Shown: in pieces, positions 8,760 through 46,853 of the stretch
Numbering within the stretch: position 1 is the first letter of the stretch
Layout of the letters: the number at the start of each line of letters is the position of its first letter
Origin: the human T2T-CHM13v2.0 reference genome, Homo sapiens
Length of the DNA stretch: 64,000 nt
Reading direction: 5' to 3' (one strand)
NCBI RefSeq assembly: GCF_009914755.1
Contig: NC_060944.1
Program-made: the position numbers and the translations under genes
Notes under the pieces: model-generated
Told to the model about the DNA's origin: nothing
Seen by the model: the letters and a program-made list of their open reading frames with translations, nothing else
Databases searched by the model: none

Positions 8760-8962
8760 CAAACAAGTGCGGCCATTTCACCAGCCCAGGCTGGCTTCTG
8801 CTGTTGACTGGCTGTGGCACCTCAAGCAGCCCCTTTCCCCTCTAGCCTCAGTTTATCACCGCAAGAGCTACCATTCATCTAGCACAACCTGACCATCCTC
8901 ACACTGGTCAGTTCCAACCTTCCCAGGAATCTTCTGTGGCCATGTTCACTCCGGTTTTACAG
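8760..8962 (+). other. SRC: SRC alternative non-coding first exon 1alpha (start approximate)
   Basis: Follows the HNF1 site; ends at strong donor ttttacAG|gtgagg; sequence matches my recollection of an SRC mRNA 5' end. Confidence 0.85.
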
Positions 8963-9045
8963 GTGAGGGGGCTGGGCTGGGAAGCTGATCGACTTGTCCA
9001 CCCCACAGCAGAGGGGCAGCTAGCCTAGATGCGAACCTAGATCAG
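8864..9045 (-). mobile_element. Degenerate MIR overlapping the exon 1alpha 3' half and donor
   Basis: agctaccattcatctagcac ... ccggttttacag-gtgagg ... gacttgtcca..ccacagc ... ggcag..agcctagatgcgaacctag resembles reverse-complement MIR (agctaccatttattgagcac ... ccccattttacagatgagg ... aacttgcccaaggtcacacagc ... ggcagagccgggattcgaacccagg). Confidence 0.6.
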
Positions 9046-9729
9046 TGTAGAGTAAGGCTTTGCTCATTCCTGGTCTCCTGGAAGGTATGTTGTACCCAGA
9101 GGCCTTTGCCTTCCACATTCTAGGGTGCTCCTCCCAGCTCCTCTCAGCAGGGACCTTTGCCCAGGGAATAGAAGCCTGACCTGTCTGGGCCTTAATTTCC
9201 CATCTGTGAAATGGGAGAACTTTCAAAGAAGGAATATGGAGGCAGGTGTGATATTTAAAGCTGGACCCAGGCCCACCTTTCCCTGTGCTAGGATTCCAGG
9301 ACAGGTAAGGAGCCAAGGGTGGGGTGCCCAGCCCCAAAAGGATAGCCCTGGAGCCTGCGCCAGGGGGTAAGAGGGGAGTCTTTGTGGCCTAAAGCAGCAT
9401 TTCCTCAATGTCCCGTTTTTCTGCTACATTTCCTGCCCTGGTTCAGAGGTACTTAGCCTCTTTACTTACTTGGAAGTGTGACTGCCACTCAGATGCCCTG
9501 GTCAGCCCCTCCTAAGCAGTAATAATTAGAACTAGGGGACTTCCGATGGGCTGCCAGGGATGTTTTGCCCTTATGCACTTAAAATGAACCCGTAACTATT
9601 AAAATAAATGTCGCTCCTCCCCACCCTGTCCCTCCTGCCCCAGCCCCTACTTTGAGAAACTCAGGTCAAGGCTAAAGTCCAAGGCCTGGTTCTTGTCAGT
9701 GCCTCAGTTTCCCCATCTGTAAAGTGGGG

Positions 9730-10900
9730 CGATCTTCCGCCGCTCAGGCCAGGTGGTGGTTAGGATTAAACCCTGAAGTCGACCTGAGCAGCTTAGCATG
9801 GCGCCTGGCCCAGAGCGGGCGCTCCACGCCCGCTGATATTATTACCAATCGTGATTTCGGGAGAGGCGGATCTGGGGCGTAGAAGGTGGGTGGGTTGGGG
9901 AGGGCATTTTGGCCTGGGGGCGGATGGGGCCCGCGGGGTGCGGCGCCCTGGCGGAGTGGGAGGCGGGGCTTCTGTGCCCGGTGTCCCCACCCCGCCCGGA
10001 CCCCCAGCTCGGGCCGCCCCTGGGTCTCTCCCGGGTCACCGGCGGGGAATCCGTCCCCGCGCGCTTCCTCCTTCCTCCTCCTCCCGGCTGCCTGCCGGGC
10101 CCCTCCTCCCAGCTCGCGCGCTCCCTCCCTCCTCTTCCCCTCCCCGGGCCGCCGCCGCCTCCTCCTCCTCCTCCTCCCTTTCTCTCTCGATCTGTCTCTC
10201 CCGGCCCGGAATCCATTCCGGCCTGGGAGCCGGAGCGGCCAGGCCGCCGTCTGCCCGTCCCGCTGGACGTCCCGCGGTCCGCCCTCCCGTGCGTCCGTCT
10301 GCCGGTGAGCCCGCCCGCCCGCCGGCCCAGGTGAGCGCCCCCCGCCCCTCCGCGGACCCCCCGCCCCGGCCAGCGCGGGGGAGCCCCCGCCCCGGACCAC
10401 CCTGGCGTCGGATCGCGGGCCGGCGGGGACTCCTGTCCACCCCCCCAATTCCCACCCCCCCTCCGGGCCAAGCCGCGATACCCAAGCGCCGGGCGGGCGC
10501 ACGGGGCCATGCCCGGCGCGGCCTTTTGTTGTGATGCAGCGGGGGGAGGGGGCTGGGCGGGGGGGGCGCAGGGTTCCTGGCTGCGTGGGGACCCCCTCCA
10601 GCTCATGCTCCCCATAGGATCCCCCAGAGAAGCCAGCGAGCTGGGCCCTAGCCCCCGGGCCAGGTCTAGGCCAAATCTGAAATCTGAGCCAGTCGGCGCC
10701 GCCTCTGCCTGGGCTGCCCGGCCCTGCGCCCCCCGGCCCCGGGTGGGAGGTGGGGGGATCGGCAGGGCGGGCTGAGGGGCCCCGGGGTCAGGGCGCCAGG
10801 CCGAACTGCCAGGACCTCCCTGCCCTCGTGGGGCCTCGGGTAGGGCCTGGTGCTGCCGGCCTGGAAGGGACTGGGCCAGACTGCGTTTGGTCTCCCCTGC
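9730..10900. promoter_or_regulatory. CpG island / TATA-less SRC 1A housekeeping promoter
   Basis: Dense CpG and very high GC; GC boxes (gggaggcggggc 9958-9969, cccgccc ~9991, ccgcccc ~10014); three polypyrimidine tracts at 10064-10085, 10121-10145 and 10158-10188. Confidence 0.92.
10229..10330 (+). other. SRC: SRC non-coding first exon 1A (start approximate)
   Basis: GC-rich, ATG-free segment downstream of the TC tracts ending at donor ccCAG|gtgagc (10330/10331). Confidence 0.87.
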
Positions 10901-43978: not shown

Positions 43979-46619
43979 GGAAAAGAAAAAGAACGAGAGA
44001 GCTTGGAGTAAAAAAAAAAAAAAAAAAAAAAAAAGGAAAAGAAAAAAGAAAAAGAACGAGAGAGCTTGGAGTGGCCTGAGAAGATGCTCTGAACACACTA
44101 ACACATAAAGTGAAAAGAGGGAGGCGGCAGTGTAGAATCTCCTCTGGGTATCTCAGGGCCTCAGTTTCCTCATCTGGAAAGTGGGGGCCACAGTGCTACC
44201 CGCATGACCCTCAGTGGGCCATTCTTGCTCAAGGACGTTCTGCTCGGAGCTTTCTCAGGCTTTCTCTGGGAGTGGGGTGGGCTGCTTTATCCTCTCACCC
44301 CTCTTCCAAGGCCATCTGGCTGCTTTGTGAGAGAGATCCCTGGGGGTAGGAGGTGGGGCCTGTGAGTTTCAGCCCCTGATTCCCACCTGCCCAGTGTGGT
44401 GGCCCCTTTTCACTCTCACCCATGCTGTGTGACTTCAGGCAAGTTCTTCAACCTCTCTGTGTCTTAATGTCCTCAACAGTAAGATAAAGACATGATTAGT
44501 ATTTACCTCCTAGATTATCATGAGGAGCCGATGAGTCAATGTTTGCAAAGTACTTAGAGCAAGGTCCAATTCAAGGTCTGAGCTCTGGGAGTATTTGAAT
44601 ACCACGGAATGATATTTAGTCTTTTCAGTGTGGCATTGCAGGAACAAAGTAGGATGCAAATTATACATCCATGCCCATTTAGTCTTTTGTCTATTCTGCA
44701 AATAGTTCCAGAGCACCTAGTGGGTGTCAGGCCCGTCCTGGTCTCTGGGGGCATGGAGATGGATCCTGCCTGGCCCTGACAGCCGCGAGTGCACAGTGGA
44801 GGGCACTGGGTGGACCCCAGTTTGTTGACCGTCTTGCGTTGCTGTGACGCTGGAAGGAAACGCACCACCACACCCAGGTGTTTGTCTTCTAGGGGCAGAA
44901 TTATGGGGCATTTTCTTTTATTTTTTCTTTTCTTTTTTTTTAATCTTCTTGTAGTTCTCAAAGAGTCCACTCTGAATGATAAAAGTTACCATTTACGGAG
45001 GCCTGGTAACGTTCCGTGCCATCCTGAGCATGTTCCGTGTACTTTTCTCACGGATTCTCCCAGCAGTCCTGACACGGGTGTTATTCCCGATCGATAGAGA
45101 GGAAAACTGAGGCGAAGGGCGGCCGGCCAGGATTCAAACCAGGGAGTCTGCTCCAGCACTCCGGCTCTTAACCTCAACCGTCTGCCTCTCCACAAACACC
45201 AGGATCAACCACCAAGACCAAAAAAACAGTCTCACAAACCATCAAACATTGCACTTGGTGGCTCAGGACCTTAGCTTCGTCTTAAAGGTCCCTGTTATGC
45301 TTTTTCTGAGTGCCCCAGTGTGGAGTGGTCTTCGTGTTTGTGAGTGCAGGGGTCAGGGGTTGTGTCTTTTCTTCTTGTCCCCTTCCAAGAGGTGACATGT
45401 ATCCTTGATACTGGAAGGGCCCTTAAGGTCTAGCCCTGGCTCTCTGTCTCCCTTCATGGCACATCAGCCAAGTACCCATTCTCCCGTCTTTGATTACCTC
45501 CAGTGACAGGGAGCTCACTCCTCAACATTTATTTTATTCTAAAGAAAATTCAGGCTCTTAGATAGTTCTTCCTCCATAAAAATTTTTTAAAAAAATTTTT
45601 ACTTCCTCTTAAAGTCTCATAAACAAGTCCCCTGCTTTGGGGTCCTGAGGCAGGACCTGGCTAATTCGTCTCTATGTCCCCCTATAGTGAGGAGCACAGG
45701 GCCTGCTAGTAGGTACTATAAATGCTGCACCAGGAAGCAAGTGGCTAGGGGGCGGGCTGGTTGGGCCCCCATCAATCCTTGGGCTGCAGGTAACCAGGTC
45801 AGCAGTTCTTGTGGGACACCAGCTGGGTGAGTGCTGATGGGTATCGTGACCTCAATGGAATAGGTTGCCATAGAAACTGACTTTGGACCTGTCCCCAGGT
45901 CCATTGACTTGTCCCTCAGGAGACCATGGTAATCCCTTGAGCTCTTCAGCAGGTCTCCCCAGGGCCTCCCCAACCCCACATTCTCTGAGCTGGGTGGTCC
46001 CCAGGGAGCATGCAAACCATACCCCCATTGTGCAGCTGGGTAGCCTGAGGCCCCAGGGGCACAGGGGACAGGCTGAAATTCACACAGGCAGGGGGCGTCT
46101 CATAGCTGGGCTGGGCGCTCAGGGCAAACAGCCTTGCCCGAGGACCCAGCCAGTCAGGGGGCCTTTTCCCCACTCATGGGTTCTCAGAGGAAATTCTGGA
46201 CCGATTCCCAGGCCTTCTGCCTCCCCAAAGAATAATCGGAACCTGCCTCCCTGGTGTGTCCAGAATTACACAATATCAATAACGGCTGAGGTGACCTGTG
46301 ATGCCCCTAGCACCCTACAGTGTCTTGTGCATTTATCACAATGACCCCATCGTTACAGATGAGGAAACGGCACAGAGAGAAGTTAAGTCACATGCCTAAG
46401 GTTACACAGCTATTTAGGGGTAGAGCCAGGATCTGGATGTGGAGAGCCCAGCTCCAGAGCCCACTCTCACCACCATGCCATACCCTGTCTCGCTCTTGCT
46501 TTGAGAGGGTTGAAAAGACTTTGGGAGGGTTGAAGGATATTTCAGGTCTAGGAGGCTCTTAGCACGGGCCTGCTAGAGCCATAGCCTGATGAACAGTGAT
46601 CAGAGAGTGGGCGCCATTA

Positions 46620-46800
46620 TGATTTCTCTTTCTAATGACATCCTCAAAACAGTGCTGAGATGTCTGCTTTATCCCTGCTTTGCAGATGAGGACGCTGAGG
46701 CCCAGAGAGGGAAAGCCACTTGCCTAGGGACACACAGCGGGGAGAGGTGGAGCAGGGCCTCTATTTCGAGACCCCTGACTCCACACCTGGTGTTTGTGCC
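46620..46800 (-). mobile_element. MIR hosting exon 1C acceptor
   Basis: tttgcagatgaggacgctgaggcccagagagggaaagccacttgcctagggacacacagc is a clear antisense MIR core. Confidence 0.85.
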
Positions 46801-46853
46801 AAGACCCCAGGCTGCCTCCCAGGTCCTCTGGGACAGCCCCTGCCTTCTACCAG
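46686..46853 (+). other. SRC: SRC non-coding exon 1C (168 nt), MIR-derived 5' part
   Basis: ccctgctttgcag|ATGAGGACGCTGAGGCCCAGAGAGG ... CTTCTACCAG|gtgaga; splices to GACCATGG of exon 2. Confidence 0.88.

What the first reader, a model, noticed from the sequence alone, without database searches (positions are those of the whole stretch)
8864..46853. SRC 5'UTR is assembled from three antisense MIRs cut at the same core nucleotide; splicing rebuilds a chimeric MIR
Seen: exon 1alpha ends at ccggttttacAG|gtgagg, exon 1B starts at ctttacAG|aacagagaacagaagc, and exon 1C starts at tttgcAG|atgaggacgctgagg. All three align to the antisense MIR core ccccattttacAG^atgaggaaactgagg. In 1B and 1C this AG is the usual MIR-derived acceptor; in 1alpha an A>G change (atgagg to gtgagg) makes the same position a donor. 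Inference: the 1alpha-1B junction fuses one half of a MIR to the other half of a different MIR 20 kb away in exact register, so the HNF1-driven leader is almost entirely SINE-derived. MIR exonization is established; donor/acceptor reuse of one homologous position across three exons of one gene is something I do not recall being described.
Basis: partly seen in the sequence, partly recalled or inferred. Interest (0 to 1): 0.8.

Follow-up and report, generated by a model that had tools for sequence, protein, structure and literature searches.

The report
SRC leader exons spliced inside MIR repeats
Three non-coding leader exons of the human SRC gene have a splice junction at exactly the same nucleotide of three separate, ancient MIR repeats, which is a tidy but essentially ordinary case of old repeats supplying splice signals.

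Summary
The three junction strings are in the sequence at 8962|8963, 29278|29279 and 46685|46686. No curated MIR library was available, so I built MIR profiles from other copies in the window. One profile left out all three test loci. In it, every junction falls between the same two positions, the AG|A of the antisense MIR core.

Exons 1B and 1C lie in clear MIR copies (50.6 and 78.2 bits). The 1alpha copy is old and weak. nhmmer reports it with only some profiles. A profile Smith-Waterman score puts it far above 400 shuffles, and so does its intronic half alone. Its exonic half alone is not significant.

Splicing 1alpha to 1B in silico gives one unbroken MIR match across the junction.

"Almost entirely SINE-derived" is too strong. 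About 56-79% of the 435-nt leader is MIR-derived.

The mechanism is known MIR exonization. The antisense core is a ready acceptor and is one A-to-G change from a near-consensus donor. I rate it a new example of a known kind, of modest interest. Dating across mammals and the curated Dfam test could not be run.

The parts
8738..8750 (+). HNF1-like motif 24-36 nt upstream of the annotated start of exon 1alpha
   Evidence: It is the only match in the window to a recalled HNF1 consensus at up to 2 mismatches. The count itself is not significant: 37 of 100 shuffles give at least one match. Only the position fits the published HNF-1alpha-regulated promoter (Bonham 2000, seen only as cited in PMC10445741).
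8774..8962 (+). Exon 1alpha (annotation supplied with the finding); donor CAG|gtgagg at 8962|8963
   Evidence: Sequence read. The last exon base maps to profile position 79 (b4) / 106 (it4).
8791..8854 (-). Second MIR fragment inside exon 1alpha, in the opposite orientation (sense relative to SRC transcription)
   Evidence: nhmmer finds it only weakly: 10.8 bits, E 0.0064 with b4 and 8.2 bits, E 0.019 with it4. Profile Smith-Waterman gives 39.8 / 40.5, reached by 0 of 400 shuffles.
8913..9043 (+). Old, diverged antisense MIR copy spanning the 1alpha donor: 50 nt exonic, the rest intronic
   Evidence: 24.2 bits, E 2.6e-7 with it4. 80 of 122 aligned columns match the b4 consensus over 8913-9037. 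The full segment and the intronic half alone are each reached by 0 of 400 shuffles; the exonic half alone is not significant.
29186..29353 (+). Antisense MIR copy holding all of exon 1B (29279-29352), with both acceptor and donor inside the repeat
   Evidence: 85.5 bits with it4 and 50.6 bits, E 3.7e-15 with the leave-three-out profile b4. The first exon base maps to it4 position 107 and the last to 191.
46631..46816 (+). Antisense MIR copy holding the acceptor and about the first 121-131 nt of exon 1C (46686-46853)
   Evidence: 78.2 bits, E 1.2e-23 with b4 over 46631-46758. The right end is estimated from where the coverage of 41 other strong copies falls away, at it4 positions 228-238. The first exon base maps to 107.
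14992..15049 (+). Possible fourth case: the acceptor of alternative exon 15018-15145 (tttcacag|ATCGGG) aligns to the same core position
   Evidence: The last intron base 15017 maps to b4 79 / it4 106. The whole segment is reached by 0 of 400 shuffles, but its two flanks alone are not significant. This is weak.
15338..15462 (-). Sense-oriented MIR that supplies the donor of alternative exon 15287-15395
   Evidence: E 1.7e-13. The last exon base maps to it4 position 100.
18893..18979 (-). Sense-oriented MIR that supplies the donor of alternative exon 18852-18935
   Evidence: E 2e-10. The last exon base maps to it4 position 95.
9131..9219 (-). Sense-oriented MIR core fragment inside alternative exon 9124-9304
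   Evidence: 28.8 bits, E 1.8e-8 with b4. Profile Smith-Waterman is reached by 0 of 300 shuffles.

Best explanation
This is ordinary MIR exonization, occurring three times in the MIR-rich 5' region of SRC. Read in antisense, the conserved MIR core is a pyrimidine-rich run followed by cAG and then ATGAGG.

That string is already a usable 3' splice site. Exons 1B and 1C simply start after this AG.

The same nine bases, CAG|ATGAGG, match the 5' splice-site consensus MAG|GTRAGT at 7 of 9 places and lack only the obligatory G at +1. In the copy next to the HNF1-type promoter that base is G. This gives CAG|GTGAGG (8 of 9), and the position serves as the donor of exon 1alpha.

Both site types fall at the same core nucleotide, so the spliced 1alpha-1B RNA reads through as one MIR made of two copies 20 kb apart. 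The likeliest view is that this register is a by-product of one sequence being close to both splice consensuses, not a selected feature.

Shown here: the junction positions, the homology and the register. Inferred: the direction of the A-to-G change (from the profile consensus only), the independence of the events, and neutrality.
For: - Junction strings are as quoted.
- All three junctions map to the same position in two window-derived profiles, one built without any of the three loci.
- 1alpha copy: 51.9 / 58.2 against a shuffle maximum of 28.4 / 31.4 (0 of 400). Its intronic half alone scores 30.4 / 33.1 (0 of 400), in the same register.
- A reversed-window decoy tops out at 1.9 bits (it4) and 4.7 bits (b4).
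- Core emissions are A 0.78, G 0.82, then A 0.61 and T 0.65.
- Of 49 window copies covering the core, 36 keep the AG and 5 carry GT just after it. A potential donor here is therefore common.
- The three copies are not duplicates of one another. The 1B seed hits 1C at only 19.7 bits, below two unrelated copies (34.3 and 29.1 bits). The 1alpha seed hits neither.
- Profile orientation: the reverse complement of its tcgaaccc stretch matches the recalled pol III B box, so + strand hits are antisense to the SINE (the motif is recalled).
- Literature: MIR exonizes preferentially in antisense, is biased to UTRs, and constitutive TE exons lie mostly in UTRs (PMC2394776, passages).
Against: - nhmmer gives no + strand hit at 1alpha with profiles b1, b3 or b4, and its score with the other series rises from 7.9 to 24.7 bits only over iterations.
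- A plain pairwise Smith-Waterman of the 1alpha segment against 40 strong copies did not separate it from controls: mean 10.2 against 9.78 +/- 0.66, with 119 of 440 controls at least as high.
- The exonic half of the 1alpha copy is not significant alone.
- The local match at the junction is partly what any strong donor would give.
- The major MIR donor reported in print is elsewhere (CTA/gtaagt, PMC2394776), and none of the three SRC exons uses it.
- No curated MIR consensus or Dfam model was available, so 'MIR' rests on a profile made from this window.
- 16 of the 18 + strand copies that keep the AG are not annotated acceptors. One is a near-perfect core at 46358, only 330 nt upstream of exon 1C. 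The core alone therefore does not explain which copies are used.
Confidence: 0.8

Rival explanations
1. The 1alpha match is not a MIR. A strong donor (CAG|GTGAGG) after a T-rich run resembles the MIR core by construction, and the rest is chance in a GC-rich promoter region.
For: - The exonic half alone is reached by 49 of 400 (b4) and 10 of 400 (it4) shuffles.
- nhmmer is silent with b1, b3 and b4.
- Pairwise Smith-Waterman had no power.
Against: - The intronic half 8971-9080, which excludes the junction, is reached by 0 of 400 shuffles in both profiles. It ends at the same profile position as the full alignment.
- The full segment scores about 20 above any shuffle or any of 432 hit-free controls.
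- A single MIR copy at 16128-16256 aligns pairwise to 8940-9071 at E 0.0013.
Confidence: 0.07
2. The shared position reflects common descent of the exons, by duplication or gene conversion of one exonized MIR within SRC, rather than three independent repeats.
For: All three lie in one gene, in the same orientation, and are cut at the same nucleotide.
Against: - The copies resemble unrelated MIRs in the window more than each other. With the 1B seed, 1C ranks fourth among other loci at 19.7 bits. With the 1C seed, 1B ranks fourteenth at 18.3 bits. The 1alpha seed finds neither.
- Their indel patterns against the profile differ.
Confidence: 0.03
3. The MIR make-up of the leader is functional and selected. 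MIR-derived sequence would supply upstream ORFs and structure that control SRC translation, differently for the two promoters.
For: - The core ATG is the first codon of exon 1C and opens a 13-codon upstream ORF. A 22-codon upstream ORF crosses the 1alpha|1B junction.
- The predicted fold of the 1alpha leader pairs cDNA 35-79 (sense MIR fragment) with 272-319 (the 1C core). MFE is -169.1 kcal/mol, z -2.6. The duplex is -65.1 kcal/mol against shuffles -51.7 +/- 4.7, with 1 of 200 as low.
- By arithmetic only, domain II (nt 197-345) of the reported c-Src IRES, described as required for activity, falls in exon 1C (PMC5224483, passages).
Against: - All of this is prediction or arithmetic. I did not see the IRES sequence itself.
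- The 1A leader also pairs heavily with 1C in its predicted fold: 43 pairs, z -1.28.
- No conservation data could be obtained here.
- Short upstream ORFs are common in long leaders.
Confidence: 0.12

Closest known systems
MIR exonization (Sela et al. 2007, PMC2394776, passages read; Krull et al. 2007 and Lin et al. 2009, not held, known only by citation)
   Same: The repeats are antisense. The splice sites lie inside them. The exons lie in the 5' UTR, where constitutive TE exons are reported to concentrate. The copies are old and diverged.
   Different: - None of the three SRC exons uses the reported major MIR donor (CTA/gtaagt).
- One copy uses the acceptor position of the core as a donor.
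- Three copies in one leader are cut at one homologous nucleotide, so the spliced RNA re-forms a MIR across an exon junction.
- I found no description of this in the searches.
Alu exonization by single point mutations that create a 3' or 5' splice site (Lev-Maor 2003, Sorek 2004; seen only as cited in PMC4615370 and PMC2879366)
   Same: A repeat consensus that is one substitution from a working splice site, so many silent copies act as pre-exons.
   Different: This is an ancient mammalian-wide SINE, not a primate one. Here the same nucleotide position serves as an acceptor in two copies and a donor in a third.
The two-promoter structure of human SRC (1A and 1alpha; Bonham 2000 and Ritchie 2000, seen only as cited in PMC10445741, passages)
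   Same: Exon 1alpha lies upstream of exon 1A, an HNF1-like motif sits just upstream of it, and the two transcript types encode the same protein.
   Different: The passages I could read say nothing about the repeat origin of the leader exons. The original papers are not held.

Membership tests
MIR / CORE-SINE element (each of the three loci) | Significant similarity to the family consensus across the conserved core | tested here: met
   Tested against window-derived profiles only. 1B scores 50.6 bits and 1C 78.2 bits with the leave-three-out profile. 1alpha scores 24.2 bits with it4, and its profile Smith-Waterman score is reached by 0 of 400 shuffles. nhmmer misses 1alpha with b1, b3 and b4.
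MIR / CORE-SINE element (each of the three loci) | A hit with the curated Repbase/Dfam MIR, MIRb, MIRc or MIR3 model, and subfamily assignment | not testable with these tools
   No repeat library is on hand, and a consensus recalled from memory may not be entered.
MIR / CORE-SINE element (each of the three loci) | tRNA-related head with a pol III B box at the SINE's 5' end | tested here: inconclusive
   The alignments of 1alpha and 1B run into the tcgaacc stretch of the profile (..gatgcgaacc....ggatttgaaacc..). In 1C this stretch is badly decayed. The B-box motif itself is recalled.
TE-derived (exonized) exon | At least one splice site of the exon lies inside the repeat | tested here: met
   The 1alpha donor, both sites of 1B and the 1C acceptor all lie inside the repeats. 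The 1C donor at 46853 lies beyond the estimated MIR end.
TE-derived (exonized) exon | The repeat is antisense to the host transcript (typical, not obligatory) | tested here: met
   All three are + strand hits of a profile whose reverse complement carries the tRNA-like head.
Typical MIR exon as described in print | Use of the major MIR donor CTA/gtaagt (PMC2394776) | tested here: not met
   The donors lie at it4 position 106|107 (1alpha), at 191|192 (1B) and outside the repeat (1C). In 1B the region of the major donor carries a 10-nt deletion.

The most novel reading that the evidence does not exclude
Promoter choice could set the fold of the SRC leader through MIR-MIR pairing. Only the HNF1-driven exon 1alpha carries a sense-oriented MIR fragment (8791-8854). 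It is complementary to the antisense MIR core at the start of exon 1C. By arithmetic, that stretch makes up most of domain II of the reported c-Src IRES and also holds the core-derived upstream ATG. The 1alpha leader would then mask this region and be translated differently from the 1A leader.
Probability: 0.12. Interest if true: 0.55.

Novelty: new member of a known kind. Interest (0 to 1): 0.3.

Why it matters
It gives a concrete, checkable example of one repeat sequence sitting close to both splice consensuses, so that a single transition turns a ready-made acceptor into a donor.

It shows that about three quarters of the non-coding leader of a major proto-oncogene is built from MIR fragments.

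It also suggests a simple genome-wide test: tally annotated donors and acceptors by MIR consensus position.

The practical consequence for SRC biology would be small, unless the MIR-derived upstream ORFs or the predicted pairing affect translation.

Tried and rejected
- Plain pairwise Smith-Waterman of 8900-9080 against 40 strong MIR copies had no discriminating power (119 of 440 controls at least as high). I dropped it as a test.
- nhmmer with the leave-three-out profile did not report the 1alpha copy. I replaced it with a transparent profile Smith-Waterman with shuffles and real controls.
- My first shuffler swapped single bases. I repeated the key tests with Altschul-Erickson shuffles and got the same outcome.
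- Three script calls failed on an nhmmer option conflict and were corrected.
- The acceptors of alternative exons 11193-11311 and 44706-44877 showed no MIR signal.
- Duplication of one exonized MIR was rejected from the seed searches.
- Krull 2007, Lin 2009 and Bonham 2000 are not held.
Sela 2007's lists of MIR exons, which might name SRC, were therefore not seen.
- The searches for SRC together with MIR returned nothing relevant.
- No mammalian genomes are in the collections, so the GT and AG dinucleotides were not dated.
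Full report
**What is in the sequence.**
- Exon 1alpha ends ..ggttttacAG and its intron begins gtgagg at 8962|8963.
- Exon 1B begins after ..cctttacAG at 29278|29279.
- Exon 1C begins after ..ctttgcAG, with atgagg, at 46685|46686.
- Exon coordinates come from the annotation supplied with the finding.

**A MIR yardstick built from the window.** I therefore built MIR profiles from the window itself by iterated nhmmer.
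- Series 'it' was seeded on 46560-46860 with 8700-9400 masked. It gathered 23, 50, 55 and 57 hits over four rounds.
- Series 'b' was seeded on an unrelated strong copy (24840-25120) with all three test regions masked. It gathered 13, 46, 52 and 53 hits.
- Both profiles show the familiar core ..cccattttacagatgaggaaactgaggctcagag.. followed by ..tcgaaccc...
- The reverse complement of that last stretch fits the recalled pol III B box. The profiles are therefore in the antisense orientation of the SINE, and + strand hits are antisense to SRC transcription.
- The window is rich in such copies: 62 hits at E<1e-3 cover 12.7% of it.
- A reversed-window decoy gave nothing above 1.9 bits (it4) or 4.7 bits (b4).

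**Are the three loci MIRs?**
- Exons 1B and 1C lie in clear copies. With the leave-three-out profile they score 50.6 bits (E 3.7e-15) and 78.2 bits (E 1.2e-23).
- The 1alpha locus is harder. With it4, nhmmer reports 8913-9057 at 24.2 bits, E 2.6e-7.
- That score grew from 7.9 bits in the first round. With b1, b3 and b4 nhmmer reports nothing on the + strand. b2 gives 16.6 bits only on the isolated segment.
- A plain pairwise Smith-Waterman against 40 strong copies could not tell the segment from controls.
- I then scored segments directly against the profile emissions with an affine-gap Smith-Waterman. Segment 8900-9080 scores 51.9 (b4) and 58.2 (it4).
- The maxima are 28.4 and 31.4 in 400 Altschul-Erickson shuffles, and 32.6 and 36.4 in 432 real segments free of any hit. 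None reaches the observed score.

**Control for splice-site mimicry.** Any strong donor resembles the core at the junction itself, so I scored the flanks apart.
- The intronic half 8971-9080 alone scores 30.4 / 33.1, reached by 0 of 400 shuffles. It ends at the same profile position as the full alignment.
- The exonic half 8880-8954 alone scores 15.5 (49 of 400 shuffles at least as high) and 18.4 (10 of 400).
- The locus is therefore a real but decayed MIR. 80 of 122 aligned columns match the consensus.
- Its identity rests on the junction and the intronic part. The 50 exonic bases are colinear but not demonstrable on their own.

**Register.**
- Tracebacks put the last base before each junction at b4 position 79 and the next at 80. 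In it4 these are 106 and 107. This holds for all three loci.
- Emissions there are A 0.78, G 0.82 | A 0.61, T 0.65. The G at 8963 is thus a departure from the consensus A.
- In-silico splicing of 1alpha-1B-1C gives a single MIR hit over cDNA 141-258 (b4 positions 27-159, 39.5 bits, E 2e-11) that runs through the 189|190 junction. A second hit starts at the 1B|1C junction.

**How special is this?**
- Of 58 hits with E<1e-5, 49 cover the core.
- On the + strand, 18 of 26 keep the AG. Only the 1B and 1C copies are annotated acceptors.
- A near-perfect core at 46358, 330 nt upstream of 1C, is unused.
- GT directly after the AG occurs in 3 of 26 + strand copies (after 8247, 8962 and 54124) and 2 of 23 - strand copies.
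- A donor-capable core is therefore common, and the core alone does not decide usage.
- The three copies are independent insertions, not duplicates. They resemble other copies more than one another.

**Mechanism.**
- The antisense core is a pyrimidine run plus cAG, which is a ready acceptor.
- CAG|ATGAGG matches the donor consensus MAG|GTRAGT (recalled) at 7 of 9 places and lacks only +1 G.
- The 1alpha copy has that G, giving 8 of 9.
- The shared cut point follows from one string being near both consensuses.
- In print, MIR is reported to exonize preferentially in antisense, with a bias to UTRs and one major donor at CTA/gtaagt (PMC2394776, passages). None of the three SRC exons uses that donor.
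- That this AG is the usual MIR acceptor is my recollection. The figure that would show it is not held.

**How much of the leader is MIR?**
- The leader is 435 nt (189 + 74 + 168 + 4).
- Antisense MIR parts contribute 50 nt in 1alpha, 74 nt in 1B and about 121-131 nt in 1C. The 1C right end is estimated from where the coverage of 41 other copies falls off. 155 nt is the seed-defined upper bound.
- Exon 1alpha also holds a second MIR fragment in the opposite orientation, 8791-8854. It is weak in nhmmer (10.8 bits, E 0.0064) but is reached by 0 of 400 shuffles in the profile score.
- Together this gives roughly 56-79%, with a best estimate near 73%. That is most of the leader, not almost all of it.
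- Exon 1A has no MIR-covered base.

**Other things seen.**
- The donors of alternative exons 15287-15395 and 18852-18935 lie inside sense-oriented MIRs.
- The acceptor of alternative exon 15018-15145 aligns weakly to the same core position.
- The core ATG is the first codon of exon 1C and opens a 13-codon upstream ORF. A 22-codon upstream ORF crosses 1alpha|1B.
- The predicted fold of the 1alpha leader pairs the sense fragment (cDNA 35-79) with the 1C core (272-319). MFE z is -2.6. The duplex is -65.1 kcal/mol against -51.7 +/- 4.7 in shuffles, with 1 of 200 as low.
- By arithmetic from the domain limits in PMC5224483 (passages), domain II of the reported c-Src IRES falls within exon 1C. I did not see that sequence.

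**What could not be done.**
- The curated Dfam/RepeatMasker test could not be run.
- The GT and AG dinucleotides could not be dated across mammals.
- No genome-wide tally of junctions by MIR position could be made.
- Krull 2007, Lin 2009 and Bonham 2000 are not held.
- Searches for SRC together with MIR found nothing relevant.
- Searches on MIR exons found no description of a shared donor and acceptor position.
- I therefore cannot say it is unpublished.

**Verdict.** It is a new, neat example of a known process, of modest interest.

Noticed in passing
window 1-64000: The region is unusually rich in MIR-like copies. 62 profile hits at E<1e-3 cover 12.7% of the window, several times the genome-wide share as I recall it.
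   Followed up: partly
window 15287-15395 and 18852-18935: Two alternative SRC leader exons take their donors from sense-oriented MIR copies, with the last exon base at profile positions 100 and 95. These lie a few bases from the same core.
   Followed up: partly
window 14992-15049: The acceptor of alternative exon 15018-15145 (tttcacag|ATCGGG) aligns to the same core position as 1B and 1C. The whole segment beats 400 shuffles, but its flanks alone do not.
   Followed up: partly
window 46297-46466: A well-kept antisense MIR with a near-consensus core (cttacag|atgaggaaa at 46358) lies 330 nt upstream of exon 1C and is not an annotated acceptor.
   Followed up: no
window 46686-46727; spliced leader cDNA 169-237: The ATG of the MIR core is the first codon of exon 1C and opens a 13-codon upstream ORF. 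In the 1alpha leader a 22-codon upstream ORF runs across the 1alpha|1B junction. Exon 1B holds a 7-codon one.
   Followed up: partly
window 8791-8854 with 46694-46741 (cDNA 35-79 with 272-319): The predicted fold of the 1alpha leader pairs the sense MIR fragment of exon 1alpha with the antisense MIR core of exon 1C. The duplex is -65.1 kcal/mol, with 1 of 200 shuffles as low.
   Followed up: partly
window 11698-11762 (-) and 11811-11936 (+): A second place where a minus-strand MIR core fragment is followed about 50 nt later by a plus-strand MIR, as in exon 1alpha. The 1alpha seed aligns weakly across both (E 0.014).
   Followed up: no
window 29389-29441: A long (CA)n microsatellite lies about 40 nt downstream of the exon 1B donor.
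   Followed up: no
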